Shown: piece by piece, positions 4,092-52,382 of the stretch | How the letters are laid out: each line of letters begins with the position of its first letter | Position numbering within the stretch: the first letter of the stretch is position 1 | Source of the DNA: a virus | Taxonomy: Duplodnaviria; Caudoviricetes | IMG/VR virus record: IMGVR_UViG_3300005253_000563 | Span: 1 to 56,414 of that record | Length of the DNA: 56,414 bases | Reading direction: 5' to 3' (one strand) | Position numbers and translations under genes: made by a program | The notes under the pieces: model-generated | The model's database searches: none | Told to the model about the DNA's origin: nothing | The model's input: the letters and a program-made list of their open reading frames with translations, nothing else

Positions 4092-5894
4092 TTATCTCAT
4101 CCAGGGCTCAGCGACCCTAGTCCCCTCCTTCTGACGGCTAAGCACCACCCCTGTTGGCCCTACAACTACTGTCTCTCCCGGCTCTATAGGCCTACTCTCT
4201 CCATACTCTTTCGGGGGAGCCATAGCTCTCGCACCTGTTAAAGGAGCAATATAACAAAGACCAGCATAGCACATTACGATATCATCCTTCTGACCTTTAC
4301 CTACCGCCTTGAGGCCATCCCTCTTCTGTGCTACTTTCATCAGAGTGAACGCGCCCATCTGACGCACACCCCAAGCGTCTCGGGTCTTAAATGTACTATC
4401 GAACACCGCCGCACGAAGAGCACCAAGAATGGCCTGTCGCATCTGGTTAGGATGACCCCAGGGGCTTTCTACGGGCTTATCAATCCTCATAGATTTACCT
4501 GGTTCAATGAAATACCAAAGGTTTTTATAGCCAATTTCTTGAATCTTAGCTACACATACCGACCCCAGCGCATCACGCTCGCCTCCCAACAAGGCGTTAT
4601 TGTAAAATCGCGCAATAGCCACTGCCATTGGGGCAACTTCTTGTGGTGCGGCTTTAACACACAACCGAGCCGCAAGTATCATACTGGCGCAATCCAGTAC
4701 ATTGATAGCCGAATAATCAGCAGCGGCATCCAACCCCCCACCAGCACAGTCCACCCACACAGCATAAGGACGGCCTAAATCGGGATGTTGCCAAATATGG
4801 AGACCATCCCCCCCAAAAGTTACTGAGCTACCTAACACCGATTGTACGATTTCCAAAGGCTCCTCAATACCATCCCGGAGTCTCTTCAAGTGATCAATAC
4901 CGTCCAGTGACGCGAAATAGTTACCTCCTTTAGATAGGAAGCAACCCTCTAGCGTCTCAACATACTCTTGTAGGAAGGGAGCATCAGTCCTATCCTGCTC
5001 CTTTTTCCTAACACGCCGCCACATTATCTGGCCCACGTCCAATCCCACTTCTACCATGAGTTTCTCCTCATCAGCAGTGGGGTGAAACTCACGAAGTATT
5101 TGTGCCCACACCTCAGAGGAATACGTGAGATCGCAAGCAGTCGTATCAGAGAGAGTGCCCGCACGATAGCGGGGTTCGATATGCCAGGGATAGAAGTGTG
5201 TAGACCAACTCGACATAGGATCGTACAGTTGAGAGCCCTGCACTAGACTATGAAACTCACCTTCAGCTCCATTGGGGGTGGATTCAATATCCAACCACCC
5301 TACAGGAGCACCAGGCACTGAGGGGAGAATACCCCCCAACAAGGCTTTTGCGCGCTCATTGGGCCAGTGGGCATATTCCGACAAATGAACTATACCGGCA
5401 GAGTACGCACGACCTGCCGTTAATTCATTTCCCGACCCCCAAAGGTAACGAGCACCTGTATCAGTAAAGACCAACTCTTCCTTACTGGAACGATGAGGAT
5501 GGGGAAAGCCTTTCTGCTCTAAGTCCCTCAGGTGATGTTCAATACGAGCGCGAAAAGTCGCAGTGGTTTGGTCATCTTGCGTCATTGTTAGACACGTCAT
5601 ACTGTGCGGCCCCACCATCCTACGGAGGTTCTTAGCTAATATGAAGGAGGATGCGCGAGTTTGACGGCCCTTGATAGTAATATCACGTCCAGTCTTGTTG
5701 TGAGACATCTGTATCTGCTGGGGGTACAGATGAAAGTCTACGACCATACCCCCCTTTTCAGAAGGAATAGTTAAGAGAGTCTCTATCCAATCAATTTCAT
5801 CCTGGGGTTCTTCGCCGAAGAATAACCGCTGGACGTTAGGGTCAGAGTAGTCTCCTTGCTCGAACCTCGTAAGGGCGGTTGTCTTGGGAGGCAT
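4092..5894 (-). CDS. terL: Terminase large subunit
   Basis: KGRQTRASS (Walker A-like), VHLSEYAHW (Walker B), IESTPNG coupling motif, FLQEY, nuclease VWVD...DYS...KDDIVM. Confidence 0.92.
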   Translation of the reverse strand: MPPKTTALTRFEQGDYSDPNVQRLFFGEEPQDEIDWIETLLTIPSEKGGMVVDFHLYPQQIQMSHNKTGRDITIKGRQTRASSFILAKNLRRMVGPHSMTCLTMTQDDQTTATFRARIEHHLRDLEQKGFPHPHRSSKEELVFTDTGARYLWGSGNELTAGRAYSAGIVHLSEYAHWPNERAKALLGGILPSVPGAPVGWLDIESTPNGAEGEFHSLVQGSQLYDPMSSWSTHFYPWHIEPRYRAGTLSDTTACDLTYSSEVWAQILREFHPTADEEKLMVEVGLDVGQIMWRRVRKKEQDRTDAPFLQEYVETLEGCFLSKGGNYFASLDGIDHLKRLRDGIEEPLEIVQSVLGSSVTFGGDGLHIWQHPDLGRPYAVWVDCAGGGLDAAADYSAINVLDCASMILAARLCVKAAPQEVAPMAVAIARFYNNALLGGERDALGSVCVAKIQEIGYKNLWYFIEPGKSMRIDKPVESPWGHPNQMRQAILGALRAAVFDSTFKTRDAWGVRQMGAFTLMKVAQKRDGLKAVGKGQKDDIVMCYAGLCYIAPLTGARAMAPPKEYGESRPIEPGETVVVGPTGVVLSRQKEGTRVAEPWMR

Positions 5895-6402: not shown

Positions 6403-6515
6403 TATCTACCTCGCCACCAAGGGAGAAAGCGTCTTCCACCCCACCATAGGAGAACTACCACGCCCAAGAAGGTGTCTATGGAATTTACTAAAGTCCAAAG
6501 GTCGTTGACACCCAC
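6402..6515 (-). CDS. 37 aa single-TM microprotein (not in ORF track)
   Basis: GTG after GGAGGG RBS; MGVNDLWTLVNSIDTFLGVVVLLWWGGRRFLPWWRGR; stop overlaps next ATG (TAATG). Confidence 0.55.
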   Translation of the reverse strand: MGVNDLWTLVNSIDTFLGVVVLLWWGGRRFLPWWRGR

Positions 6516-6552
6516 AATTATCACCCTCCGTCACTGTGGTCACCTCTAACTC

Positions 6553-7668: not shown

Positions 7669-8358
7669 CTAGACGATTATGCCGGTTTCGCCTTCAACCC
7701 ATATCCAAGTGGAAAAGTAATTGAAGGTTGCCTTACCAATAGTGAGTGTTATCTCAGACGGACCAATAACACACGCCATAGGGTCTTTAGCCCGCGCACT
7801 ATAAGCAAGACGTGTGAACATACCCTCTTCACTACTTCCTGCCTCCGGGGCCGCACCAAGAGTAGCATTTGCGCGCCAAATCTCCTGATACCTGTTACCT
7901 GCCGTTGCTGGCGACGTAATTGCCGTAACATCGCTCTGGACAGTAACACCCGAACCCGCAGCCAGGTCATTCTTCATATTGTAGACGGTCTGAGCCGTTC
8001 CGCCTGTAGGTGTGGTGTCCAACGAGTCGGCAAAGGCCAATATTGCTTCCATATCTTGGTCATCCACCAAATCATCAATATTGAGTTCCATATTGACTAG
8101 GAATACAGTGACTCCCTGAGGAACCTGCATATGAACATCAGGCTTGGTGGCATCATAAGCACCCGCAGATGCTACAACTGAAGTGCCCGTTCCAATATTA
8201 ACCATTTTGACGTTGCCCTGCAACAAGTGGTTAAGATACCAGTCTGCGGTAAACTGCACTCCATCAAAAGTCGCACGGGGCGGTGCGGTAGCTGCTCTAT
8301 ATCCTACACCCGTCTGGCTCCGCTCGACCAGGGGTTCCACATCTCGTGTGTTAGTCAT
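7669..8358 (-). CDS. Putative virion (decoration-type) protein, paralog B
   Basis: AAGGAG RBS; clear similarity to 8394..9071. Confidence 0.7.
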   Translation of the reverse strand: MTNTRDVEPLVERSQTGVGYRAATAPPRATFDGVQFTADWYLNHLLQGNVKMVNIGTGTSVVASAGAYDATKPDVHMQVPQGVTVFLVNMELNIDDLVDDQDMEAILAFADSLDTTPTGGTAQTVYNMKNDLAAGSGVTVQSDVTAITSPATAGNRYQEIWRANATLGAAPEAGSSEEGMFTRLAYSARAKDPMACVIGPSEITLTIGKATFNYFSTWIWVEGETGIIV

Positions 8359-8393: not shown

Positions 8394-9071
8394 TTAGATA
8401 GCCTTATTCGCATTAAGTTCAATCCACACGAGTCTGCCAAAGAATGTGAATGCACCTTTTGCAACGTGAACTGATAATTCGGAGGCACCAACAATACAGG
8501 CCGTAGGGTCATCACGCCGAGCGTCAAAGGATACACGATCAGGCATCCGCCCTTCTTCATTTTGAGCCGCCACAGCCGTCGCACCGAATACGCCATGGGC
8601 TCGCCAGAGTTCCTGATACCTTCCGCTCATAGCAGTAATAGTAGCCGTGTACCCTACCGCCACATTACTACGTGCGGGCAGGTCATTCTTCATATTGTAG
8701 ACAGTTACGCCCGTAGCACTATCCGTAGTATCGAGAGAATTAGAGAAGGCCACTACCAGCTCTAGATCAGTGTCATCAATCGTCAAGTCGATGTTGAGTT
8801 CAAGGGATACAGGGATAACAACAGTTCCACTAGGAATCTGCATGTGTATATCGGGAGTGGTATTCACCCATGCCCCCGCAGAGGTAACAGGGTCGCTAGC
8901 AGAACCAATATTGCACATCTTGACATTACCCTGCAACAGGTGATTCATATACCAGTCAGTTGTGAACTGTGCTCCGTCTAGTGTGGCGCGAGGTAGCGCG
9001 GGCTCGTCGGTGTAGGTTACACCTGTTTGACTGCGCTCGATACGTGGCTCCACACGCGCAGTTTCATACAT
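8394..9071 (-). CDS. Putative virion (decoration-type) protein, paralog A
   Basis: Start moved to ATG 9071 (GAGGAGG RBS, aligns with paralog N-terminus). Confidence 0.7.
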   Translation of the reverse strand: MYETARVEPRIERSQTGVTYTDEPALPRATLDGAQFTTDWYMNHLLQGNVKMCNIGSASDPVTSAGAWVNTTPDIHMQIPSGTVVIPVSLELNIDLTIDDTDLELVVAFSNSLDTTDSATGVTVYNMKNDLPARSNVAVGYTATITAMSGRYQELWRAHGVFGATAVAAQNEEGRMPDRVSFDARRDDPTACIVGASELSVHVAKGAFTFFGRLVWIELNANKAI

Positions 9072-9129
9072 ATAGTAATTCCTCCTCTTGCAAGAGTAGA
9101 TTGGACAACATGCGTCGCCCACTACTTGT

Positions 9130-9159
9130 ATTGTATAGGGGAGAGGAAAGAAATGTCAA
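9130..9159 (-). promoter_or_regulatory. sigma70-type promoter
   Basis: TTGACA-N18-TACAAT upstream of the paralog pair/packaging operon. Confidence 0.7.
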
Positions 9160-9181
9160 GTAGTAATGTTTATGAATACCA

Positions 9182-9216
9182 CAACGCCCCCTCTCAACTC
9201 ACAGGAGGGGGCGTTG
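9182..9216 (-). terminator. Hairpin, probable intrinsic terminator
   Basis: CAACGCCCCCTC / GAGGGGGCGTTG 12-bp inverted repeat in intergenic DNA; U-tract weak. Confidence 0.5.
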
Positions 9217-11630: not shown

Positions 11631-11960
11631 TTAGTCACCGCTCCAGAGAATACCACGCACACGGGGGGTCTGTCCCGTCGTCACGTTGATAAACGAGATA
11701 TTAGTGCTAACTTCTAGGTCATGCTCATCATACGCGTCACCCTCTTCAAGAAAGAGGTCTGAAGTAGTCGCTGTGGCATCGAAGGCAATGGCGACTTCGC
11801 CTGGGCCTTCGTTGACGAGGGACACCGCACGCCCCTTCTTCAGTGCAGGTACCGAAACCAAATCCTCCGCAGTCGCCGTAACGGCCAGCGTCACGTCGAA
11901 TGGAGTAGAGGTATCAGCGGATGGGAAGTCCTTCTTGGCGACCTTTGGGTTGATAGGCAT
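11631..11960 (-). CDS. Small beta-rich protein, possible virion component
   Basis: 109 aa, AAGGAG RBS. Confidence 0.6.
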   Translation of the reverse strand: MPINPKVAKKDFPSADTSTPFDVTLAVTATAEDLVSVPALKKGRAVSLVNEGPGEVAIAFDATATTSDLFLEEGDAYDEHDLEVSTNISFINVTTGQTPRVRGILWSGD

Positions 11961-11992
11961 AATTCAAACTCCTTCTAACTATATCATAGCGT

Positions 11993-12164
11993 AAAACAAC
12001 AGCGGGAGGGGGTGTCAGCCTCCCTCCCACGTTAGCCTAGGGTTGCCTCTCGACCACTCCTAGGGTAGCGTGCGCGACCCGCTTACTCTCCACGTTCCCA
12101 CCAATCTATCGCACGGCAGTTCGTGGCTGTGATACCGTGCCCACTCCACTCAGCGGGCCGCGCC
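11993..12164 (-). ncRNA. Putative structured small RNA (~170 nt)
   Basis: Consensus promoter directly upstream, 12-bp closing stem and 8-bp inner stem with G.U pairs on this strand, CCTAGG stem, terminal hairpin plus TGTTGTTTT; no ORF. Confidence 0.7.
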
Positions 12165-12169
12165 TATGT

Positions 12170-12210
12170 ATTATAACCTCCTTGCCAAAGAGAAGTCAAG
12201 GGGGTATACT
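12170..12210. promoter_or_regulatory. Overlapping divergent sigma70 promoters
   Basis: Minus: TTGACT-N18-TATAAT (12199-12170); plus: TTGCCA-N17-TATACT (12182-12210); marks the strand switch of the genome. Confidence 0.8.
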
Positions 12211-12233: not shown

Positions 12234-12425
12234 GTGCCCGCTACCCAAACATTCAAATGCTCGGTATGTGACCATATCTTCGAGACGCAGGAACCTGCTG
12301 GCAGTACTCCCCCTAGATATATCCTCTGTTCAAAATGTGGAGGTAGATCATATTGGCAACCACCCACAGGAACCAGTTTCATCATAAAGGATGGTGGAAC
12401 TGGTGCTCAGAAAGGAAGTAGATGA
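12234..12425 (+). CDS. FmdB-like zinc-ribbon protein
   Basis: MP...FKCSVCDHIFE...CSKCGG...SFIIKDGG. Confidence 0.75.
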   Translation: MPATQTFKCSVCDHIFETQEPAGSTPPRYILCSKCGGRSYWQPPTGTSFIIKDGGTGAQKGSR

Positions 12426-25945: not shown

Positions 25946-26616
25946 AACACATCGATATCGTAAGCCAACACCTGAGCTTAGAGATAGGCTTCACTGGCGA
26001 CCTTCACCCCGCAGGGCTCACTGAGGCTATCATAGAGGCACTAGAGAAGGGGGGGGTGCTAGAAGCAGCGGGTATTGTCTACCTCAAAGCTGAGGCTCCT
26101 GGGCACAAGCTAGTAGCTATCAACCTCTGGGCACCCGATCCAGTTGAAGAGATAGAACCACCCACGATACCAGAGGAAGAAGAGAAAGGACTAACCCCTA
26201 ATGTGTGAACCAATTACGGCGGAGGACACAGCCCGAGAAGCCCGCCGCGCTGTCATGCACCTAAGAGCACAGCATGGCATGTGGAATCTGGATGAGGTGG
26301 TGGACTGGTTGTTCAACGCGCAGGAAGACAAAGCCCGCCTGGAGCAGGAGCTAACGCCTTGGAAGCAGGAGTTTCCTAACTGGGACACGCTAGAGGTTGC
26401 GAAGCGCATCCAAGACCTAGAGGCCGAGGTGCGAATGGCCTGCCAAGATCGCGATGACCGTGAGACCAAGCCGGGCGAGGCCAGGGAGGCGCTGCAACCT
26501 TTCATCGAGCACGCCGAGAAGCGCCCTATGGAGTCTCATTGGACTACCTGGGCTAGCTTCGATGATTTCGCCAAGGCCCGCGCCGCCTGTCGAAGCGAGC
26601 CTGAAAGCGAAAAAGG

Positions 26617-26844
26617 TGAGTAACCTACCTATAAGTTTATTCAGGTATACAACAATAAACTTATAGGTAGGTTACTCTTCATTAGTACTGCAATAACATA
26701 AGAGAATAATAGTAAATACAGATACAGAAAAGCCGAAAAGGGTGAGTAGCCTACCCAGGGTTTTCACCCACAAAAAGAAAAGGGTGAGTAGCCTACTGCC
26801 GGTGGTTCGTTTATACAACAATAAACTTATAGGTAGGTTACTCA
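26617..26844. repeat. Nested inverted and direct repeats, candidate replication origin
   Basis: 24-bp IR 26618-26641/26654-26677, 32-bp DR 26646-26677/26812-26843, 20-bp DR 26735-26754/26777-26796, AT-rich core. Confidence 0.85.
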
Positions 26845-34374: not shown

Positions 34375-34925
34375 ATGAATAATGAATATAACACAGAGTT
34401 AATAAAGGGCAAGTATATGGATGCCAGTGCGGTTCCTATCCAACATATCTTTCAAGAGTATGCTTGGTGGGGAGATGCCGTGGCCACTCCACCCGGATGC
34501 GCTTATGAAATAAAACTCATTGCTGGGGGTACTGATATAGATAATCTCTCTTCAGCTGTACGAACGAAGATCAAGAAGCACTCACTGAGCGGCCACTTAC
34601 GTGTCGCACGACGCCGTGACCGCCTCTTCATTATAAATGCTGCCTCTGTGGAGTAGTAATAATGCCTGAATACATAAGTATCAACGAGATTCCTGAACAC
34701 GGGAACGAGTCGGGTAAAAAGTATGCTTGGATCGAAGAGGTCTTGGCTACCCCGCCTGGGTGTGCTTATGAGGTAATAAGTGAAAAAGGGCACAAGACCG
34801 TAGCGAGTTCGGTACGGTATTTTCTTAGGAAACGGCAACCACAGGGACCTTTACGTATGGTATGTCGTGGTTCGCGTGTCTTCGTCGTAAATGATTCGCC
34901 AGTTATGGGAGAGGATCAAGCTTGA
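34375..34925 (+). other. Tandem paralogous small genes (34375-34656, 34662-34925)
   Basis: Both carry YAW....ATPPGCAYE and LR...R..R.F..N. Confidence 0.75.
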
Positions 34926-35434
34926 TGAGGGCAGGTACCGCATTGGTATTTAGCACTGTTGCAGTTGAAACAGAGAACTTGAATGTTTTCTGTAGGGTAC
35001 CCCTTGGCCTTCAAGGTGCTATAGAGTGAGGTACCTAGGGTTTTCGAGCTACTGGGCTGTTCTCGCCCGTCAATGTGGTCGATTGTAAGAAATTGTATTG
35101 TATGTTCACCACAACAAGCACATTTGCCGCCGTAAGCGTTCATCGTTTCCTCCTTCAGGCGTTGTCGCCAAGTTTTATTATTTGTTTTGGCTTTACCCGA
35201 GCAATTATCGCACCTCGTTGTGGTGGTGGAGGGACAAAGACCACATTGAGTACAAGTTCCCTCTTGAAGACGTTTCTTTCGGCGTTGGGCTGTTTTTACC
35301 CCATCCCGAGCGTGACAGCTATTGCAGGTGGTTACCTTCATTCTTTCACGGGGATGGCCGCATTGCGAGCACAGTCCTTGATCAACTCGGGTTCTGTAAT
35401 ACTTTTGCATATACGGTTGTGTATTCTTAGGCAT
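34916..35434 (-). CDS. HNH endonuclease with tandem Cys repeats, antisense insertion
   Basis: YGGKCACCGE, LTIDHID, QVLCFNCN; two G.C.QCG...C..C repeats; ATG 35434 at predicted +1. Confidence 0.85.
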   Translation of the reverse strand: MPKNTQPYMQKYYRTRVDQGLCSQCGHPRERMKVTTCNSCHARDGVKTAQRRKKRLQEGTCTQCGLCPSTTTTRCDNCSGKAKTNNKTWRQRLKEETMNAYGGKCACCGEHTIQFLTIDHIDGREQPSSSKTLGTSLYSTLKAKGYPTENIQVLCFNCNSAKYQCGTCPHQA

Positions 35435-35440
35435 ATTCAC

Positions 35441-35469
35441 AGTATATCACTAAAAGGAGGTGTTGTCAA
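35441..35469 (-). promoter_or_regulatory. sigma70 promoter for the antisense HNH (leaderless)
   Basis: TTGACA-N17-TATACT, ATG after a 6-nt gap. Confidence 0.75.
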
Positions 35470-38832: not shown

Positions 38833-39195
38833 ATGAGTAGACGCTCCACAGTAAACCAGAGTAAGGACGCAGAACGGGAGGTTGCTCGCCAGCTAGGCGG
38901 TAGGCGTCTCCACTCAGGTGAGTGGAAGCGTAAGAGTGGTGATGTCGATGTAATAGGAACTTTCTTCCTTGCTCAGGTCAAGCACCGTTCGGGGGTGCCT
39001 AACTACATTATTGAGGGAATGAATCAGATTCAGGAGGCAGCCACAGAACGAGAAGAACTACGGCGTTTGGAGCCAGGTATTGTTGCCCACCCCGATGCAC
39101 TTCTAGTCCTACGAACAAAGCCAGGACAAGGGAAGCCGTCTAGGACTTTCGTGATTCAAGAGATTGAGGACTGGCTACGTGAACCGAGTCCGTGA
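38833..39195 (+). CDS. Holliday junction resolvase-like PD-(D/E)xK nuclease
   Basis: EREVA...GDVD...QVK. Confidence 0.7.
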   Translation: MSRRSTVNQSKDAEREVARQLGGRRLHSGEWKRKSGDVDVIGTFFLAQVKHRSGVPNYIIEGMNQIQEAATEREELRRLEPGIVAHPDALLVLRTKPGQGKPSRTFVIQEIEDWLREPSP

Positions 39196-41818
39196 GTGTG
39201 ACCGCTGTCCTGCGTTAGTTAAATGCCGCAAGAACATAGTGTCTGGGGCGGGTATTGACGACGCTGGAATAGCCTTTGTCGGTGAAGGGCCAGGCCAAGT
39301 AGAGAACGATAAGAACCGCCCGTTCGTGGGCAAGGCTGGACGAGTCTTGAAGACGATTGAGTGGGCTGCTGGTATCAACCAATTTAAAGCATATCACTGT
39401 AATGCTACGCGTTGTTGGGGCAAGCGTAACCCTAAGGCTGAGGAGATAGACGCCTGCCACGACTACCTCATTGAGGAGCTGAAGGAACTCAACCCGAAAG
39501 TAATCGTAGCTCTTGGGGGTGCGGCTCTCCGTAGCTTATACAAGCCAGGGACTACCGTAGGTTCGGTGATGGGGTTCACTCTATACAATGATGAACTTCC
39601 AGGTATACCGATAATTGGTACCTATCATCCTTCATACATAATGAGAGGACACTGGGGTGAAGTGGCTCTGGTACTCTCCCACTTCCGCAAGGCTAAGCGC
39701 ATTGCTGAGTCTGACGAGTGGAAGGAAGAGTTGGGCTCCTATCTTGGGATCACCACCCTTGAGGAGTTACGTGCTTTGAGGGACTACCTGCTGGGGCCAG
39801 AGGTTGATTTGTTGGCCTTAGACACGGAGACTTGCGGACTCTCATGGATGGATGATGAGCTTCTTTGTGTTTCCCTGTCAGGGGAGCGAGGTACGGGCTA
39901 CAGTGTGCCCATCCTCCATCGAGGTGAGCGGACGGTGACGACAGCGAAGGGAAAGAGCAAGAAGGAGTGGTGGCCTGTCCCCTACTGGAAATTGGATAAG
40001 GAGATGCCTGAAGTCCTCACCATTCTTGGTGAAATTCTTAGTTCAGATGTACCAAAAGCAGGGCAGAATATAGGATTTGATCTCCGAATGTTGGAGCGTC
40101 GCTCTGATGAGCAGGTCGTAACAGCTAAGACTGCATTCGGTTTCGAGGTCAATAATATGGTGCATGACACGAAAATGCTGAGTTCGTTAGTATCTGAGGT
40201 GAGCCCTGCTAACCTCACGGCCCTATGTGCCTACTGGACTGACCTGCCTTTTTACGAAGAGGAAGTCAAAGATTTTAAGTCAAAAATGTGGCACGTCCCT
40301 GATGAAACACTCTGGATATATGGCGCGGCGGATGTAGACGTTGTGCAGGAGCTTGTACCTGTCCTTCATCCTAAGGTACAAGAAGAGAATGCGGATTGGG
40401 TTTACGAGAATATCTCTATTCCCCTCATCCGCTGTGCTACGAAGATGGAAGAGCGAGGAGTCTACATCGACCGAGAATACTTCGACCGGCTCTGTCTCTA
40501 CTACAGAGACCGTCTAGTGGAGCAGAAAGCAGAACTAACAGAGGCGCTTGGTCGAGAGGTGGAGAAGCCCTCCTACTACAAAACAGTGCAGAAGGTTCTA
40601 TTTGAGGACTTAGGCCTGCCTTTAACGAGTAAGCCAGCCAAGGGAGCACTCAAGGACTGTGAGGCTTGTAAGAAGACTTGGAGCCCTTGCTCTCCGAAGC
40701 ACGCCTCTACTAGTGCTGCTGACTTAGAGGAGTTGAACGAACGCTCTCCTCATCCAGTACTGCCTCTCTTCATCGACATCCGTCATACTGAAAAATTCAG
40801 CAGCACCTACATGGACGGCGGTGAAGGTGGGGGGATGAAGGCTTACATCCGAGAGGATGGGCGTATCCATCCTAGCTGGAACGCAGCACGGGCAGCCTCA
40901 GGGCGCTTCACTTGCACCGACCCGAGCCTCATGACCATGCCTAAGGAGGTAGTCATTGATAGTGATAAGTACGACATCCACTCTAAAGACGCTATTCGTT
41001 CTATGCTCATTGCTCCTCCTGGCTATGGCCTGTTTAATGCGGACTGGAGTCAGGCGGAAGTTTTTGTCATGGCTTATGAGAGTGGAGACGAAACTCTTCT
41101 CAACCTTCTCTTAGAGGGGGTTGATGTGCATGCCTATGTAGCTCGTGAGCTTTGTAAGCTAGGGGCCTCCAGTAAGTTCCCTCGCGAGGCTGTAGACGAA
41201 ACTCTTTCTCTTGTGGACTGGCAGGAGGCACATCCCGATCTTAGAGGACGAGGTAAACCATTCGTTTTTGGTATGAACTACGGTCTGACTATAGAAGGCG
41301 CGGCGGAGAGGCTAAATTGTTCTAAGGAAGAAGCGGCTCCTCTCTTGACTCACTACACTGGCCATATCTTCCCTAAGATGGCCCCGTATCAGTTACGTAT
41401 TCGAGAAGACATGTTCGAGTACGGATCGACAAGCAACAAGTTTGGGCGTAGGGGACACTACCCCGAAGTGCCTATCCTTGCTGCGCTCAAATTCAAGGGA
41501 GACTTGGAGGGGGTCATTCGCCAAGGGTACAACCGACCTATCCAGAGTGGGGCTCACGACCTCCACAGCTTAGCCCACATCGCTACCGAAAGGGAATTGT
41601 CGAGCTTCGTTTTTCCCTGCCTCGAAATGCACGACAGCCTCATGGGCTACTACCCAGAGGGCAGGCAGGAGGAAGCGAAAAATGCTATACTTAACCTCTG
41701 GGGCGACGTGGCACGTAACACTGTCCTATCCTCAGGGGAGAAACTAGGCTGGAAAATCCCTGTTGATGTGCAAACGGGGCACAGTTTTGGGGAGCTAGAG
41801 GTGAAAGAAGATGGCTAA
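39179..41818 (+). CDS. polA: Family A DNA polymerase with N-terminal family-4 uracil-DNA glycosylase domain
   Basis: UDG: CxxC...C, GEGPG, PFVG.AG, YHPS; exo DTET, NIGFD, Y...D; pol DWSQAE, K...FG.NYG, MHDS; GTG 39179 after GAGGA. Confidence 0.93.
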   Translation: MNRVRECDRCPALVKCRKNIVSGAGIDDAGIAFVGEGPGQVENDKNRPFVGKAGRVLKTIEWAAGINQFKAYHCNATRCWGKRNPKAEEIDACHDYLIEELKELNPKVIVALGGAALRSLYKPGTTVGSVMGFTLYNDELPGIPIIGTYHPSYIMRGHWGEVALVLSHFRKAKRIAESDEWKEELGSYLGITTLEELRALRDYLLGPEVDLLALDTETCGLSWMDDELLCVSLSGERGTGYSVPILHRGERTVTTAKGKSKKEWWPVPYWKLDKEMPEVLTILGEILSSDVPKAGQNIGFDLRMLERRSDEQVVTAKTAFGFEVNNMVHDTKMLSSLVSEVSPANLTALCAYWTDLPFYEEEVKDFKSKMWHVPDETLWIYGAADVDVVQELVPVLHPKVQEENADWVYENISIPLIRCATKMEERGVYIDREYFDRLCLYYRDRLVEQKAELTEALGREVEKPSYYKTVQKVLFEDLGLPLTSKPAKGALKDCEACKKTWSPCSPKHASTSAADLEELNERSPHPVLPLFIDIRHTEKFSSTYMDGGEGGGMKAYIREDGRIHPSWNAARAASGRFTCTDPSLMTMPKEVVIDSDKYDIHSKDAIRSMLIAPPGYGLFNADWSQAEVFVMAYESGDETLLNLLLEGVDVHAYVARELCKLGASSKFPREAVDETLSLVDWQEAHPDLRGRGKPFVFGMNYGLTIEGAAERLNCSKEEAAPLLTHYTGHIFPKMAPYQLRIREDMFEYGSTSNKFGRRGHYPEVPILAALKFKGDLEGVIRQGYNRPIQSGAHDLHSLAHIATERELSSFVFPCLEMHDSLMGYYPEGRQEEAKNAILNLWGDVARNTVLSSGEKLGWKIPVDVQTGHSFGELEVKEDG

Positions 41819-42401
41819 TAAGGTTTATATGCCACCATCGAAGTCTGTCGAGTATCCGACCCCCGACGATCTATTTGATCAATTGAATGGGGAGTTCGGT
41901 CCCTTCACCCTTGACCCTTGTTGTCGTCCTGCCCACTACACGGCTAAGCGAGTGCTTGATGCTGGGGGTACAATTTATATTCCCCCCGATGTATCGGGTG
42001 AGTGGAAAGACGCCTATGAAGATGTTAAGGTAGACGGGTTAGCTCAAGACTGGCATGGACGTGTGTTTATGAACCCGCCTTATGGTCGCGAAATTGTGAA
42101 ATGGATAGAAAAAGCGGTTGAAGAGGTTTATGTTGAAGAACGAGTTGAAATTGTGGTAGCTCTATTGCCGGTGAGAACGGATACTGCTTGGTGGCAAGGT
42201 TATATCAATCGGGGTAACTCTATGGCTCCGCAACTAGGGCAGAAACTTCTAAATATACACCTTGCTAATCGTAACATCAAACTACCCTATGCGACGGCTT
42301 CTGGCGTCAGGTATCTGCCTGGCCGCCTAAAGTTTGGTGGGGAGAAGAATTCTGCGCAATTCGCAAGTGCTGTGGTGGTATGGAGCCGATATGATGACTA
42401 A
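41811..42401 (+). CDS. Phage N6-adenine DNA methyltransferase
   Basis: TP..LF, FTLDPC, DGL.QDW, FMNPPYG, RTDT.WW, GRLKF. Confidence 0.9.
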   Translation: MANKVYMPPSKSVEYPTPDDLFDQLNGEFGPFTLDPCCRPAHYTAKRVLDAGGTIYIPPDVSGEWKDAYEDVKVDGLAQDWHGRVFMNPPYGREIVKWIEKAVEEVYVEERVEIVVALLPVRTDTAWWQGYINRGNSMAPQLGQKLLNIHLANRNIKLPYATASGVRYLPGRLKFGGEKNSAQFASAVVVWSRYDD

Positions 42402-46660: not shown

Positions 46661-47455
46661 ATGGATGAACTAACAGGAGGTAGTCTCTTCTCTGGTATAG
46701 GGGGTCTTGACCTTGGCCTAGAACGAGCAGGCATCAAGATTGTTTGGCAGTGCGAGATTAGTGACTTCTGTCGGCGTGTGCTGAAGAAGAACTGGCCTGA
46801 CGTTCCCTGCTATGAGGACATTAAGGAGATTGACCGTGACACTCCGAAAATCGACATTCTCTTCGGTGGGTTCCCCTGCCAACCAGTTTCGACAGCGGGT
46901 AGACGGAAAGCTGAGGAAGATTCGCGTTGGCTCTGGCCAGAATTTGCCCGCGTCATCGGTCTACTTCGACCGCGCTACGTCCTTGTGGAGAACGTCCCAG
47001 GACTCCTCACAAAGGGGATGGGATTCGTCCTCTCTGACCTTTCCTCGTTCGGGTACGATGCTGAATGGCATTGTATCCCCGCAGTCGCCTTTGGTGCGCC
47101 CCATCGACGTGAAAGGGTTATCTTGGTTGCCTACAATGACCGAGCATCCCGGCCCCAACAAGAACGCAAATGCCAAGTTATGGGGGCCAGCGAAGAGTTT
47201 GCAGGAGATGGCAAGGACGGGGTTATGGCCAACCCCAACAGCGAGAGATTACAAGGATACAGGCAAGAATACCAATTACGAGAAGTTGTCAAAGAAACGG
47301 CGATTAGTAGGGGTGGTTGGTGGGCAGTTGAACCCAATGTGGATCGAGTGGCTGATGGGGTTCCCTCTCGGGTGGACAGACTTAGAGGACTAGGTAATGC
47401 TGTAACGCCCCAGCAAGCAGAGTTTGTAGGAAGGTTAGTAGTTGCTCGTGGATAA
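46661..47455 (+). CDS. dcm: DNA cytosine-5 methyltransferase (large subunit)
   Basis: LFSGIGG, GGFPCQ, ENV, PHRRER, motif X LGNAV. Confidence 0.93.
   Translation: MDELTGGSLFSGIGGLDLGLERAGIKIVWQCEISDFCRRVLKKNWPDVPCYEDIKEIDRDTPKIDILFGGFPCQPVSTAGRRKAEEDSRWLWPEFARVIGLLRPRYVLVENVPGLLTKGMGFVLSDLSSFGYDAEWHCIPAVAFGAPHRRERVILVAYNDRASRPQQERKCQVMGASEEFAGDGKDGVMANPNSERLQGYRQEYQLREVVKETAISRGGWWAVEPNVDRVADGVPSRVDRLRGLGNAVTPQQAEFVGRLVVARG
47136..47393 (+). CDS. Overlapping-frame small subunit of the C5 methyltransferase (start uncertain)
   Basis: +1 frame: LWPTPTARDYK...LNPMWIEWLMGFPLGWT (motif IX-like). Confidence 0.7.
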   Translation: MTEHPGPNKNANAKLWGPAKSLQEMARTGLWPTPTARDYKDTGKNTNYEKLSKKRRLVGVVGGQLNPMWIEWLMGFPLGWTDLED

Positions 47456-49896: not shown

Positions 49897-50394
49897 ATGA
49901 AAACCTTACCAGTGGTCTACTTAGCCGGTCCTATGGCTGGCTGTACCTATGATGAGGCTGATGGTTGGAGGCAATACGTAAGGAACCTTCTTCCTGAGTG
50001 TGATGTCCGATCACCAATGCGAGGAAAAAACTTCCTTCAGGACTTGAAGACCATCCCTACAGGTATTGGGGTTCAGTCGCATGAGCTGGCAGTCAATGCT
50101 GTAGATGCGGCCATATCTAGTCCCCACGCTATTGTCATACGAGATCATGCGGATGTAACTGAGGCTGATGCTGTTATTGTTAATCTCAGCAAGGCTACTA
50201 GTGTTAGTATTGGTACTTGCTTTGAGTTGGCCTGGTGTTGGGAACAACAGAAGCCCGCTGTTGTTGTAATGCCTAAGGATTCTCCACATGAGCATCCCTT
50301 CATTCGGGAGGCTGCTTATGCTGTCGTACCCTCGATAAATGATGCGGTTATGGTAGCCAGAACATATCTCAACTTGGAGGTATATGCAGAATGA
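49897..50394 (+). CDS. Nucleoside 2-deoxyribosyltransferase-like protein
   Basis: VYLAGPM, WR, RD...V..AD, SIGT.FE. Confidence 0.88.
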   Translation: MKTLPVVYLAGPMAGCTYDEADGWRQYVRNLLPECDVRSPMRGKNFLQDLKTIPTGIGVQSHELAVNAVDAAISSPHAIVIRDHADVTEADAVIVNLSKATSVSIGTCFELAWCWEQQKPAVVVMPKDSPHEHPFIREAAYAVVPSINDAVMVARTYLNLEVYAE

Positions 50395-50602: not shown

Positions 50603-50893
50603 ATGCCATATATTACACCAGAAGACCGTGCTCTAATATCTCTTCGGTATGGTACCCAACGTTGTCACCCATGTACTGCGGGTGAATTGAATTTTGTTTT
50701 TACCGAACTGATTTTAGAGTACCTTGAAGTATGTGGGCTTTCGTATCAAACATGTAATGATATCATTGGTGCTCTCGAACAGGCCAAGGATGAATTCCGC
50801 AGACGTGTGGTGCACCGTTATGAAGACATAAAAATAGAAGAGAATGGGGACGTTTATGACCCCCAGTATACCGGGGAGGGACAAGTATGGTAA
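50603..50893 (+). CDS. Conserved phage protein
   Basis: MPYI, GELNF, GALE.AK.EF.RR.V..YED.KI.ENGDVY. Confidence 0.75.
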   Translation: MPYITPEDRALISLRYGTQRCHPCTAGELNFVFTELILEYLEVCGLSYQTCNDIIGALEQAKDEFRRRVVHRYEDIKIEENGDVYDPQYTGEGQVW

Positions 50894-51834
50894 TGCTCCA
50901 CGGAATTGACTGTTCTTACGACCCGCTTACCGACTCAGAAGCTGCTGCCCTAAAACAACACGATATCAAAATTTTTGGTGCTTGTCTCTGGACAGCCGCT
51001 GAAGCTCCCAGCGTTCGTATCTCTAACTTGCGAGTAGCAGAGAGAGCAGGGTTGCACACTTGGGGGTACCTCTCTCTAAATGGGATGGGAAATGGAGCCT
51101 ATCATGTCGACCAAGCTCTTAGGAACTTTCCCCGAGACCTCTGGGATCATTTCTTGTTTGTAGCTGTAGATGTAGAGCTTCCAGGTATTTACGAAACAGA
51201 TATCCTTGAGGCCTGTCACGCTGTAGGGTTGGCTGGCCAGAAGGCAGTCATCTACACCAACTATAATAGCTGGCAGAACTACGTGACGCCTAGCAACACT
51301 TCTGCCTTAGCACAATTAGACGTACCCCTACTCAACGCCTTCTGGGACGGAGACCCTGACGTAGACTTCTCTAAGTACCCCTTCGGTGGTTGGCGTCCCG
51401 ATCAGGTTATTGGGGAGCAATACACAGGCGGGCAGTACGTCCAAGGTCAGTACGCAGACAACGCGATGTTCTATGAAGATCGACTCAATATCAATAAGGA
51501 GGATGACACCATGGGAATGACGCCAAATGAGACAGCGGATTTCAGAACTATCCAACGGAAATTGAAAACTCAAGCTAATAAGATAGCTATGCTAGAGCGG
51601 CTCATGTCCTGCCAACTAGACTTCAGTCGCTCCCTTGCTGACCGTGTGAACGCTATTCGCTGTACTGTGGACGGACTGCTTACTATCTTGAAGCAGACTG
51701 GTCTTATTAGTAGCAACACTATTCTTGATGGCTATCAAACAGAAGTAAATAAGATGCAACTACGCTTCGAGATGAAGTTCAAGGCCCTTACGCACTTCAT
51801 GCGTAACGTCCGGAAGTCGGGGTATGGGGAGTAA
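50887..51834 (+). CDS. GH25-like muramidase (endolysin candidate)
   Basis: GIDCS, VDVE, IYT, GGW...QYT; C-terminal coiled coil. Confidence 0.7.
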   Translation: MVMLHGIDCSYDPLTDSEAAALKQHDIKIFGACLWTAAEAPSVRISNLRVAERAGLHTWGYLSLNGMGNGAYHVDQALRNFPRDLWDHFLFVAVDVELPGIYETDILEACHAVGLAGQKAVIYTNYNSWQNYVTPSNTSALAQLDVPLLNAFWDGDPDVDFSKYPFGGWRPDQVIGEQYTGGQYVQGQYADNAMFYEDRLNINKEDDTMGMTPNETADFRTIQRKLKTQANKIAMLERLMSCQLDFSRSLADRVNAIRCTVDGLLTILKQTGLISSNTILDGYQTEVNKMQLRFEMKFKALTHFMRNVRKSGYGE

Positions 51835-52382
51835 TGGCGCATTGCGCATACTGCGGTCCTAATAACCCCTGTCGAGGTCACACAGGAGAGCACGACCCCG
51901 AGAAGGCTCTCCACTACTCAGAGGGGAAGCCTGGTGTAGACCAAATACCTGTAGAGGTGCTACTTGAATGGGGTGAGGTCTTTAGCTATGGAGAGAAGAA
52001 GTATGATCGGGCCAACTGGCTGAAGGGTAATGATTGGCACCAGTTTCAGGGGAGCGCCTTACGTCACATCTACGCCTTCTGGAGGGGAGAAGACATTGAT
52101 CCCGAATCGGGCCTACCTCACCTTTCTCATGCTCTGTGGAACATCGGAGCACTCCGCTACTACCAGATACATGGAATAGGGAATGACGATAGGCCGATAC
52201 ATCATCTTGACCTTTCTGGCCTCTGTGATGACGATAGTCCTCAGTACATTTGTGTTGACTGCAATCACACTACTTGTAGGGCAATTCGGAATCTCCGTGA
52301 GGACATAGAAGTATTGGACGATTTGAAGGCCGTGATCTTAGCTAACATACAGGAGGGTAACAGTGAACAAGAAACCGAATAG
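51834..52382 (+). CDS. dATP/dGTP diphosphohydrolase (DUF5664-like)
   Basis: GK....IP, YG.KKY...NW.KG, RH..AF..GEDIDPESGLPHL.HA. Confidence 0.88.
   Translation: MAHCAYCGPNNPCRGHTGEHDPEKALHYSEGKPGVDQIPVEVLLEWGEVFSYGEKKYDRANWLKGNDWHQFQGSALRHIYAFWRGEDIDPESGLPHLSHALWNIGALRYYQIHGIGNDDRPIHHLDLSGLCDDDSPQYICVDCNHTTCRAIRNLREDIEVLDDLKAVILANIQEGNSEQETE

What the first reader, a model, noticed from the sequence alone, without database searches (positions are those of the whole stretch)
11993..12164. Stand-alone structured sRNA with six GUGG motifs
Seen: TTGACT-N18-TATAAT places +1 at the base of a 12-bp stem (GCGCGGCCCGCU/AGCGGGUCGCGC). This encloses purine-rich unpaired strands and an 8-bp hairpin (GCACGGUA/UGCCGUGC), followed by a CCUAGG stem and a terminator. 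G.U pairs favour the minus strand. GUGG occurs six times, mostly in unpaired parts, and the inner loop holds CCACG, complementary to two AACGUGG copies. No ORF. I do not recognise the family. Inference: a protein-sponge RNA, a 6S-like decoy, or a pseudoknot switch controlling read-through into the late operon.
Basis: partly seen in the sequence, partly recalled or inferred. Interest (0 to 1): 0.72.

Follow-up and report, generated by a model that had tools for sequence, protein, structure and literature searches.

The report
Orphan structured small RNA gene in phage
An uncultivated marine-sediment phage carries a small non-coding RNA gene with its own promoter and terminator and a conserved folded front half; the gene looks real and matches no described RNA family, but what it does is still a guess.

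Summary
There is an 11-of-12 sigma-70 promoter, a start at the foot of a 12-bp GC clamp, a ~93-nt 5' domain, a CCUAGG hairpin and an intrinsic terminator.

One metagenome scan found two relatives, L004 and L005. Both keep the promoter, the 5' domain (100% and 97.8% identity) and the terminator. Their RNAs are 296 and 190 nt rather than 172, because whole hairpin modules come and go between domain and terminator. Six of 7 substitutions at predicted paired positions keep the pair as G.U on the minus strand. None is a double compensatory change.

The downstream gene is variable and has its own promoter, so this is an independent small-RNA unit, not an obligatory leader. Rfam 15 has no match.

GUGG occurs six times, against 1.85 expected, but folding predicts these motifs mostly paired. 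That weakens the sponge idea.

Best guess, at confidence 0.38: an early, stable, trans-acting RNA recognised through its folded 5' domain. A regulated read-through leader towards the terminase block remains a rival. No expression data exist.

The parts
12170..12199 (-). Promoter of the RNA: -35 TTGACT (12199-12194), 18-nt spacer, -10 TATAAT (12175-12170)
   Evidence: One search gives 11 of 12 consensus matches. Both hexamers are invariant in all 3 sequences, and the spacer has one substitution (T/C) plus a 1-nt deletion in L004.
12182..12210 (+). Rightward early promoter TTGCCA-17-TATACT. It overlaps the RNA promoter back to back, each -35 lying in the other's spacer, and it drives the 63-aa Zn-ribbon gene at 12234-12425.
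   Evidence: Searches give 10 of 12 matches. It is conserved in L004 and L005. One search gives Zn_ribbon_8 at 7.8e-05, below the Pfam cut-off.
12072..12163 (-). Conserved 5' domain, closed by the 12-bp clamp P1 (12152-12163 with 12072-12083). The transcript starts at about 12163-12165.
   Evidence: Identity is 100% to L004 and 97.8% to L005. Two C-to-U changes in L005 both keep P1 pairs as G.U. Contig breakpoints lie at 12070/12071 in three runs.
12111..12140 (-). Optional 8-bp hairpin P2 (GCACGGUA/UGCCGUGC) with a 14-nt loop. It competes with the MFE alternative CUGCCG/UGGUGG.
   Evidence: No sequence variation exists to decide between the folds (8 of 8 pairs never vary).
12090..12126 (-). 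CCACG (12122-12126) pairing with CGUGG (12090-12094).
   Evidence: One search shows it in the MFE. One search gives the duplex -5.9 kcal/mol. It is invariant in all 3 sequences.
12036..12064 (-). CCUAGG hairpin capped by a GNRA tetraloop (GAGA at 12048-12051, GGAA in L004). The hairpin is absent from L005.
   Evidence: -13.6 kcal/mol.
11993..12034 (-). Intrinsic terminator: a hairpin with GUGG...CCGC at its base, followed by UGUUGUUUU.
   Evidence: Energies are -23.1, -25.3 and -21.3 kcal/mol in the window, L004 and L005. One U-A to U.G change is seen, and a G-C pair is lost on both sides in L005 against L004. Loose ends of other contigs show different stems between the same flanks (table 7).
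11978..11986 (-). Extended -10 (TGATATAGT) of the next unit, just upstream of the SD and ATG of the 109-aa gene.
   Evidence: Read by eye. The equivalents are TGCTATAAT in L005 and L002. The promoter scan did not flag it because there is no -35.
11631..11960 (-). 109-aa gene of unknown function, given as context. It is a variable cassette and not a fixed partner of the RNA.
   Evidence: It is absent in L004 and 76.4% nt identical in L005. Homologues at 73-75% aa in L002 and L003 have no RNA upstream.

Best explanation
This is an independent small-RNA gene of the phage, read from the minus strand by host sigma-70 RNA polymerase.

Shown by the sequence:
- A near-consensus promoter is interlocked back to back with the rightward early promoter.
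- The transcript begins at the foot of a 12-bp GC clamp that closes a conserved ~93-nt 5' domain.
- A dispensable middle section follows, with one hairpin here and one or three in relatives.
- A GC-rich terminator hairpin ends the unit, and the next unit's own promoter follows it at once.

Inferred:
- The RNA is made early.
- It is long-lived because both ends are locked in stems.
- It acts in trans as a decoy or scaffold, with a host or phage factor recognising the folded 5' domain. It does not act through an exposed seed or through single-stranded GUGG repeats.
- The terminator also shields the leftward genes from this strong promoter.

The partner is unknown.
For: - The promoter has 11 of 12 consensus matches. 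It is one of the four best sites in the window, and three of those four lie at 9.1-12.8 kb in intergenic positions.
- Fold stability on the minus strand is z -3.65, with 0 of 200 shuffles as good. The relatives give z -4.81 and -3.36.
- In all 3 sequences the promoter block, the 5' domain and the terminator are kept, while both flanks are mosaic. The 109-aa gene is missing in L004, and the Zn-ribbon gene is replaced there.
- RNA length is 172, 190 or 296 nt through loss or gain of whole hairpins.
- Six of 7 substitutions at predicted paired positions keep pairing, all as G.U in the minus-strand sense: P1 2, extra hairpin X1 3, terminator 1. The tetraloop changes GAGA to GGAA and so stays GNRA.
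- Downstream genes have their own promoters.
- Complementarity to the rest of the phage is no greater than chance: two 12-mers found, about one expected by my own arithmetic.
- The 5' end is sequestered, and most of the RNA is predicted paired (mean unpaired probability 0.35). This fits recognition by shape rather than seed pairing.
Against: - There are no expression data. No listed run holding the stretch is on record as RNA.
- Only 3 full sequences exist, and they are very close. The right flank is also 96-99% identical, so the conservation of the 5' domain does not exceed that of the neighbouring genes.
- There are 0 compensatory double changes. One outermost terminator pair is broken in L005.
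- With a 50% chance that a transition keeps a pair, 6 of 7 has p about 0.06. This arithmetic is mine.
- The interior fold is ambiguous.
- No partner, target or homologous family was found.
- The RNA is absent from the two more distant records that share the 109-aa gene. In some contigs the sequence left of 12181 is replaced, so the gene is accessory.
- The U tract is short and interrupted, so read-through, and with it a cis role, is not excluded.
Confidence: 0.38

Rival explanations
1. Cis-acting terminated leader. Transcripts from the strong promoter normally stop at the terminator. A phage factor that binds the nascent 5' domain or the polymerase, or the RNA itself, makes the polymerase termination-resistant so that it reads into the leftward block and on to the terminase. 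From memory, the parallels are lambda N/nut or Q/PR'-6S-tR', and put of HK022.
For: The arrangement is promoter, then a conserved RNA element at +1, then a terminator, at the head of a 12-kb co-directional block. That block contains the large terminase at 4092-5894 (best hit 5e-19 to an annotated TerL). No strong sigma-70 site lies in the 150-nt leader of the 168-aa/terminase genes. The U tract is modest, so termination could be tunable.
Against: The next genes carry their own promoters: extended -10 at 11978-11986, 11477-11449 with 10 of 12 matches, and 9159-9130 with 11 of 12. The gene after the terminator differs between relatives. The distance from 5' domain to terminator varies about 37-160 nt. 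No -10-like pause element is seen by eye in the first 25 nt. No antiterminator family appeared among the 40 window proteins scanned against Pfam, but that is not all ORFs and the record is 77% complete.
Confidence: 0.2
2. Base-pairing riboregulator. G-rich stretches of the RNA pair with C/U-rich sites in host mRNAs or host small RNAs, acting as a classical trans sRNA or an anti-sRNA sponge.
For: It is a stand-alone unit with a terminator hairpin and U tail, which is the usual build of bacterial and prophage sRNAs (established knowledge). G content is 37%. GGAG occurs 5 times against 1.95 expected, p 0.022.
Against: The 5' end is locked in a 12-bp clamp and the G-rich stretches are predicted paired. 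No target beyond chance lies in the phage itself. The host is unknown, so host targets could not be searched.
Confidence: 0.15
3. Protein sponge with repeated single-stranded GUGG (or GGAG) motifs, built like CsrB/RsmZ.
For: GUGG occurs 6 times against 1.85 expected, and 7 and 6 times in L004 and L005. The number of hairpin modules varies between relatives, as it does in sponge RNAs. The extra hairpin X1 carries another UUGGUGG.
Against: Most GUGG nucleotides have unpaired probability below 0.2 in all three RNAs, so they act as stem strands. The largest extra module, X2 in L004, holds no GUGG (one search lists none between 128 and 229). The motif was chosen after looking, and two coding windows reach the same density.
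Confidence: 0.08
4. No RNA function. The promoter exists to compete with or balance the interlocked early promoter, the terminator insulates the leftward genes, and the conserved block persists because it is a recombination linker between mosaic modules.
For: The two promoters are interlocked. Mosaic breakpoints sit at 12027, 12070/12071, 12163 and 12181. The conservation of the 5' domain is no higher than that of the right flank.
Against: Six of 7 paired-position changes keep pairing. Deletions in two lineages remove whole hairpins but spare the 5' domain. The GNRA loop is kept through two substitutions. An insulator would not need a 93-nt domain.
Confidence: 0.12
5. Something else:
(a) a short protein from the GUG frame inside the RNA;
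(b) a packaging RNA like pRNA of phi29, which multimerises through CCACG/CGUGG loop pairing;
(c) a DNA-level site such as an origin or operator.
For: (a) The frame has 29, 58 and 59 codons.
(b) There is a 5'/3' closing helix plus two complementary 5-nt sites, a dispensable 3' part, and a terminase in the same block.
(c) The element sits at the strand-switch region.
Against: (a) There is no SD, the start lies beside the clamp, and the C-termini are unrelated.
(b) No pRNA match was found in Rfam. The phage has PolA and at least 56 kb, unlike phi29-type phages (phi29 features are recalled). The pairing can form within one molecule.
(c) G.U pairs and G.U-forming substitutions point to RNA. Iteron-like repeats at 26.6-26.8 kb are a better origin candidate.
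Confidence: 0.07

Closest known systems
Lambda late leader (PR' promoter, 6S transcript, tR' terminator); recalled, not fetched
   Same: A strong sigma-70 promoter makes a short (~170-200 nt) terminated transcript at the head of a co-directional block that includes the terminase.
   Different: The flank upstream of the promoter is a divergent early unit, so no Q-type gene can sit directly upstream, and none appeared among the 40 proteins scanned. No -10-like pause element is seen. The downstream genes have their own promoters, and the first gene after the terminator is variable. The conserved element here is an elaborate RNA fold.
put RNAs of phage HK022 and nut sites of lambda (cis-acting antitermination RNAs); recalled
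   Same: A structured RNA element lies right after an early promoter and upstream of a terminator.
   Different: put is about 70 nt with two stem-loops, whereas this is a 93-nt clamp-closed domain. No model was available to test membership. The terminator sits directly behind the element with nothing upstream to filter, and independent promoters lie downstream.
CsrB/RsmZ-type protein-sponge RNAs
   Same: It is a stand-alone RNA with a repeated short purine motif and a variable number of hairpin modules.
   Different: Sponge motifs sit in hairpin loops, whereas here GUGG is predicted inside stems. No Rfam match was found. No cognate protein is known.
Bacterial 6S RNA
   Same: The size class is similar, the termini are paired, and there is a large internal non-helical region.
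   Different: No match to any Rfam family at E<=10. The domain is half the length of 6S and holds a hairpin or pseudoknot rather than an open-promoter-like bubble.
phi29 pRNA (packaging RNA); features recalled
   Same: It has a 5'/3' closing helix, two short complementary sites that could pair between molecules, a dispensable 3' part and an early promoter.
   Different: No Rfam match was found. The phage type is unrelated (PolA, DnaB-like helicase, primase). Intramolecular pairing explains the complementarity equally well.
Prophage and phage trans-acting sRNAs (for example DicF, AgvB/AsxR; Pas sRNAs seen only as a listing)
   Same: It is an accessory, horizontally mobile sRNA gene with its own promoter and a Rho-independent terminator.
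   Different: Those RNAs have accessible seed regions and known targets. This one has a clamped 5' end, and its host is unknown.

Membership tests
Stand-alone bacterial/phage sRNA gene | Own promoter | tested here: met
   One search gives 11 of 12 consensus matches. Both hexamers are invariant in 3 of 3 sequences, and the spacer varies at two positions.
Stand-alone bacterial/phage sRNA gene | Own intrinsic terminator, with the next gene transcribed independently | tested here: met
   The hairpin scores -21 to -25 kcal/mol and is followed by a U-rich tail in 3 of 3 sequences. The next unit's promoter follows directly. The simple scan missed the terminator.
Stand-alone bacterial/phage sRNA gene | Discrete transcript of the predicted size | not testable with these tools
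   No listed holder is on record as RNA, and only DNA contigs could be laid.
Stand-alone bacterial/phage sRNA gene | Structure conserved in relatives | tested here: inconclusive
   Six of 7 paired-position substitutions keep pairs and 0 are double compensatory, from only 3 close sequences.
Stand-alone bacterial/phage sRNA gene | No coding capacity | tested here: inconclusive
   A GUG frame of 29, 58 and 59 codons is present, without an SD and with unrelated C-termini.
Any Rfam 15 family (6S, pRNA, riboswitches, ribozymes, CsrB/Rsm, Y RNA, CRISPR repeats and others) | Covariance-model match | tested here: not met
   There are 0 matches at gathering score over the window. At E<=10 the only rows are 2 in the window stretch and 4 in L004/L005: lncRNA models plus one plastid 3'UTR model, at 9.8-16.7 bits against cut-offs of 48-60.
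Riboswitch / attenuator | Aptamer coupled to a mutually exclusive terminator/antiterminator | tested here: not met
   The closing stem is a 12-bp GC clamp that is unlikely to switch. The spacer to the terminator varies about 37-160 nt among relatives. No antiterminator pairing was found by inspection.
CsrB/RsmZ-type sponge | Repeated motif exposed in loops or single strands | tested here: not met
   The motif is enriched, 6 against 1.85, but its unpaired probabilities are mostly 0.00-0.2.
Lambda-type Q late leader | Downstream late genes depend on this one promoter | tested here: not met
   Further promoter-like sites lie at 11983-11978, 11477-11449 and 9159-9130.
Lambda-type Q late leader | Q-type antiterminator gene and a sigma-dependent pause element | tested here: inconclusive
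   None appeared among the 40 proteins scanned, and no -10-like element is seen by eye in +1..+25. Not all ORFs were scanned, and the record is 77% complete.
phi29 pRNA | phi29-type phage with a prohead-bound RNA ring | tested here: not met
   The genome is at least 56 kb with PolA, helicase and primase. There is no Rfam match. Prohead binding cannot be tested with these tools.
HK022 put | Two-stem-loop RNA that makes the polymerase termination-resistant in cis | not tested

The most novel reading that the evidence does not exclude
The conserved clamp-closed 5' domain is a new class of phage RNA that acts in cis on the polymerase that makes it, either alone as put does or with a phage protein as nut does. 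The ~170-nt RNA would then be the default terminated product. The switched state would send transcription through its own terminator and the later ones into the terminase and morphogenesis genes. This would be an RNA-based early-to-late switch in a phage lineage that shares no close relative with any cultured phage.
Probability: 0.12. Interest if true: 0.7.

Novelty: new member of a known kind. Interest (0 to 1): 0.36.

Why it matters
Small RNAs of lytic and uncultivated phages are barely charted. A strongly promoted, structurally clamped RNA sitting in the early control region of a phage with almost no recognisable genes on that side is a reasonable candidate for a host-takeover or timing device.

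The practical gain from this work is a clean definition of the unit: promoter, conserved 5' domain, dispensable middle and terminator. With that definition the unit can be synthesised and tested. The work also shows that the attractive 'GUGG sponge' and 'late-operon switch' readings are not what the sequence supports best.

On present evidence it is an orphan. It has three near-identical copies, no expression data and no partner, so its importance is moderate.

Tried and rejected
- Searches for more homologues of the RNA failed. Five RNA or promoter patterns in viral contigs gave 0 hits each. A gapped pattern in genome contigs gave 0. blastn of 901 bases against the phage collection gave nothing.
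- Model R1 found only itself in the window. The next best rows scored 15.7 bits or less at E>=0.14. It found nothing in records G001 and G002, and a DNA search of those records also found nothing.
- Protein-based fetches with the 101-aa protein and with PolA in viral contigs gave no relatives.
- Expression: no RNA holder is listed.
- Parts without contig cover are not used as evidence.
- Target search inside the phage gave only chance-level 10-12-mers.
- UUGGUGGCGAG is shared between L004's extra hairpin and the leader of the 168-aa gene at 6403-6552. The alignment score of 22 lies inside the background, where the top windows score 24-31, so I rejected it.
- The small leftward proteins show no obvious membrane segments on reading, so a lambda-like 'lysis genes first' layout is not supported.
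- phmmer of the 600-aa and 665-aa proteins against PDB sequences gave nothing useful. tblastn of the 665-aa protein gave no match. The Atlas search for the 357-aa protein gave no usable hit.
- Two literature searches (listings only, no paper read) turned up no description of such an RNA. They are not exhaustive.

Full report
**Setting.** The window is an IMG/VR virus record of 56,414 bases, estimated 77% complete.
- Genes from 12,234 to about 52,845 run rightward. They encode replication and nucleotide functions: an SF2 helicase, a DnaB-like helicase, a primase, a RecA/UvsX-like protein, PolA with an N-terminal UDG-superfamily domain, an exonuclease, Dam, a C5 methylase, a dATP/dGTP diphosphohydrolase domain and a deoxyribosyltransferase.
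- Genes from 11,960 down to 169 run leftward and gave almost nothing in Pfam or PHROGs. Ten of 10 had no Pfam family, and 9 of 10 had no PHROG.
- The exception is the 600-aa protein at 4092-5894, which is a large terminase. The Atlas gives feature scores of 0.99 and TM 0.71-0.77 to clusters partly annotated as terminase. tblastn hits annotated TerL genes, the best at 5e-19 over 88% of the query.
- PolA is under 25% identical to any phage in the collection, so the lineage is remote and the host is unknown.
- The finding lies in the 273-nt gap between the two divergent blocks.

**Checking the observation.** On the minus strand the promoter TTGACT-18-TATAAT occupies 12199..12170, with 11 of 12 matches.
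- Only four sites in the whole window reach 11 of 12. Three of them (12199-, 9159-, 12729+) are intergenic and correctly oriented between 9.1 and 12.8 kb.
- Six to eight bases after the -10 the sequence enters a 12-bp stem, GCGCGGCCCGCU/AGCGGGUCGCGC, which holds one G.U.
- The 172-nt RNA folds to -81 kcal/mol (z -3.65; 0 of 200 shuffles as good). The plus strand gives -68.2 (z -2.42).
- The CCUAGG hairpin and the terminator hairpin with its UGUUGUUUU tail are present.
- GUGG occurs six times against 1.85 expected, p about 0.003. The motif was picked after looking, and two plus-strand coding windows have the same density.
- Two points of the description do not hold up.
That fold scores -36 to -38 kcal/mol against -43.9, and the 5-bp CCACG:CGUGG pairing is worth about -5.9. 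The two interior folds are therefore about equal in energy and cannot be told apart.
  - In the partition function the GUGG motifs are mostly base-paired, with unpaired probabilities 0.00-0.2 for most positions in all three homologues.
- A GUG frame of 29 codons lies inside the RNA, but it has no ribosome-binding site.

**Relatives.**
- The 109-aa gene just downstream has two homologues in viral contigs, at 73% and 75% aa identity. In both, a promoter sits directly in front of the gene and the RNA is absent.
- A 20-mer from the 5' domain found two metagenome contigs, L004 and L005. Both carry the same promoter block, the same 5' domain (100% and 97.8% identity) and a terminator.
- Between domain and terminator the three differ by whole modules. 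The window has only the CCUAGG hairpin and gives 172 nt. L005 has a different hairpin, X1, and no CCUAGG hairpin, giving about 190 nt. L004 has X1, a further ~75-nt domain and the CCUAGG hairpin, giving about 296 nt.
- Contigs of four DNA runs laid on the region break at the same module borders: 12027, 12070/12071, 12163 and 12181. Their loose ends show X1-type sequence after the 5' domain. They also show terminator hairpins with quite different stems between the same flanks, AACGUGG...CCACUGUUGU.
- Both flanks are mosaic as well. L004 lacks the 109-aa gene, and its terminator is followed at once by TTGACA-17-TACACT of the next gene. L004 also has a 253-aa Cys-rich ORF where the window has the Zn-ribbon gene.

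**How strong is the case for a functional RNA?** It is moderate.
- For: 6 of 7 substitutions at predicted paired positions keep the pair, always as G.U in the minus-strand sense. Two are in P1, three in X1 and one in the terminator. One outermost terminator pair is broken in L005.
- For: the tetraloop changes from GAGA to GGAA and so stays GNRA. L005 lacks one G-C pair of the terminator on both sides compared with L004.
- For: independent deletions removed whole hairpins but spared the 5' domain and the terminator.
- Against: there is no double compensatory change.
- Against: the three sequences are close kin, the right flank being 96-99% identical. The near-invariance of the 5' domain therefore says little by itself.
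- Against: there is no expression evidence at all.
- No Rfam 15 family matches, even at E<=10.

**Leader or stand-alone gene?**
- The unit after the terminator has its own promoter in every case. It is an extended -10, TGATATAGT, at 11978-11986 in the window, TGCTATAAT in L005 and in the distant L002, and a full TTGACA-17-TACACT in L004 (read by eye).
- Further leftward promoters lie at 11477-11449 (10 of 12) and 9159-9130 (11 of 12). The latter sits just after another GC-rich hairpin.
- The gene following the RNA is not constant, and the distance from 5' domain to terminator varies several-fold.
- A 12-bp GC clamp is a poor switch helix, and I found no antiterminator pairing.
- I therefore read the element as an independent transcription unit.
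- The leftward block does lead to the terminase. A regulated-read-through role, lambda-like or nut/put-like (both recalled), therefore stays open as the main rival, at about 0.2.

**Mechanism.**
- Shown: the promoter, the clamp at the 5' end, the conserved domain, the dispensable middle, the terminator, and the interlocking of this promoter with the rightward early promoter TTGCCA-17-TATACT at 12182-12210, where each -35 lies in the other's spacer.
- Inferred: early transcription by the host polymerase; stability from structured ends; and action in trans through the folded 5' domain, as a decoy or scaffold for an unknown host or phage factor.
- I prefer recognition by shape over seed pairing for three reasons. 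Little of the RNA is predicted single-stranded. The 5' end is sequestered. No complementarity above chance exists elsewhere in the phage.
- I give this reading 0.38. The remaining probability is split as follows: base-pairing regulator 0.15; no RNA function (promoter competition, insulation, recombination linker) 0.12; single-strand GUGG sponge 0.08; small peptide, pRNA-like ring or DNA site 0.07 together.

**Novelty and value.** This is a new, unclassified member of a familiar kind, the accessory phage sRNA gene. Its distribution is narrow: three full copies plus contig fragments, all from marine-sediment data. It would become interesting if the 5' domain proved to act on the polymerase or on a defence or translation factor. 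Nothing here shows that. Comparisons with lambda 6S/tR', HK022 put, phi29 pRNA, CsrB and 6S RNA rest on recalled features. The exception is that the Rfam search, which covers the curated ones among them, found no match.

Noticed in passing
window 26609-26843: There are iteron-like direct repeats (3 copies of 20 nt and 2 identical copies of 32 nt) in an AT-rich gap between rightward genes. This is a better candidate for a replication origin than the sRNA region (GC 0.33 rows).
   Followed up: no
window 39164-41818, 41811-42401, 46661-47455, 49897-50394, 51834-52382: Five genes together hint at modified DNA: PolA fused to a UDG-superfamily domain, Dam, a C5 cytosine methylase, a nucleoside 2-deoxyribosyltransferase and a dATP/dGTP diphosphohydrolase N-terminal domain (1.9e-28). 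The 315-aa gene just upstream (50887-51834) gave no family.
   Followed up: no
window 4092-5894 (-): This 600-aa protein has no Pfam hit but is a large terminase by Atlas features and structure and by tblastn to annotated TerL genes. The leftward block therefore contains the packaging genes.
   Followed up: partly
window 11631-11960 (-); L002, L003, L005: The 109-aa gene behaves as a mobile cassette with its own extended -10 promoter. It is absent in L004, 76% nt identical in L005, and 73-75% aa identical in two otherwise different virus records.
   Followed up: partly
window 12170-12210: The RNA promoter and the rightward early promoter are interlocked back to back, each -35 lying inside the other's spacer. 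One polymerase should therefore exclude the other.
   Followed up: no
window 9130-9215 (-): An 11-bp GC hairpin (AACGCCCCCUC...GAGGGGGCGUU) is followed by TTGACA-18-TACAAT. This is another terminator-plus-promoter boundary inside the leftward block.
   Followed up: no
window 12063-12149 (-); L004 165-341 (-); L005 724-903 (-): A GUG-started frame lies inside the RNA, with 29 codons here and 58 and 59 aa in the relatives. The first 24 residues are shared and the C-termini are unrelated. There is no Shine-Dalgarno sequence.
   Followed up: partly
window 35441-35469 (-) and 34916-35440 (-): An 11-of-12 promoter with a TG extension lies on the minus strand inside the rightward block, next to a 174-aa minus-strand ORF. 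A 60-nt diverged direct repeat lies at 34454 and 34717.
   Followed up: no
window 7669-8358 and 8394-9122 (-): The neighbouring 229-aa and 242-aa genes share a 32-nt stretch at 91% identity (7958 and 8674), which suggests paralogues.
   Followed up: no
L004 594-1355 (+): A 253-aa cysteine-rich protein with internal repeats stands where the window has the 63-aa Zn-ribbon gene, behind the same early promoter.
   Followed up: no
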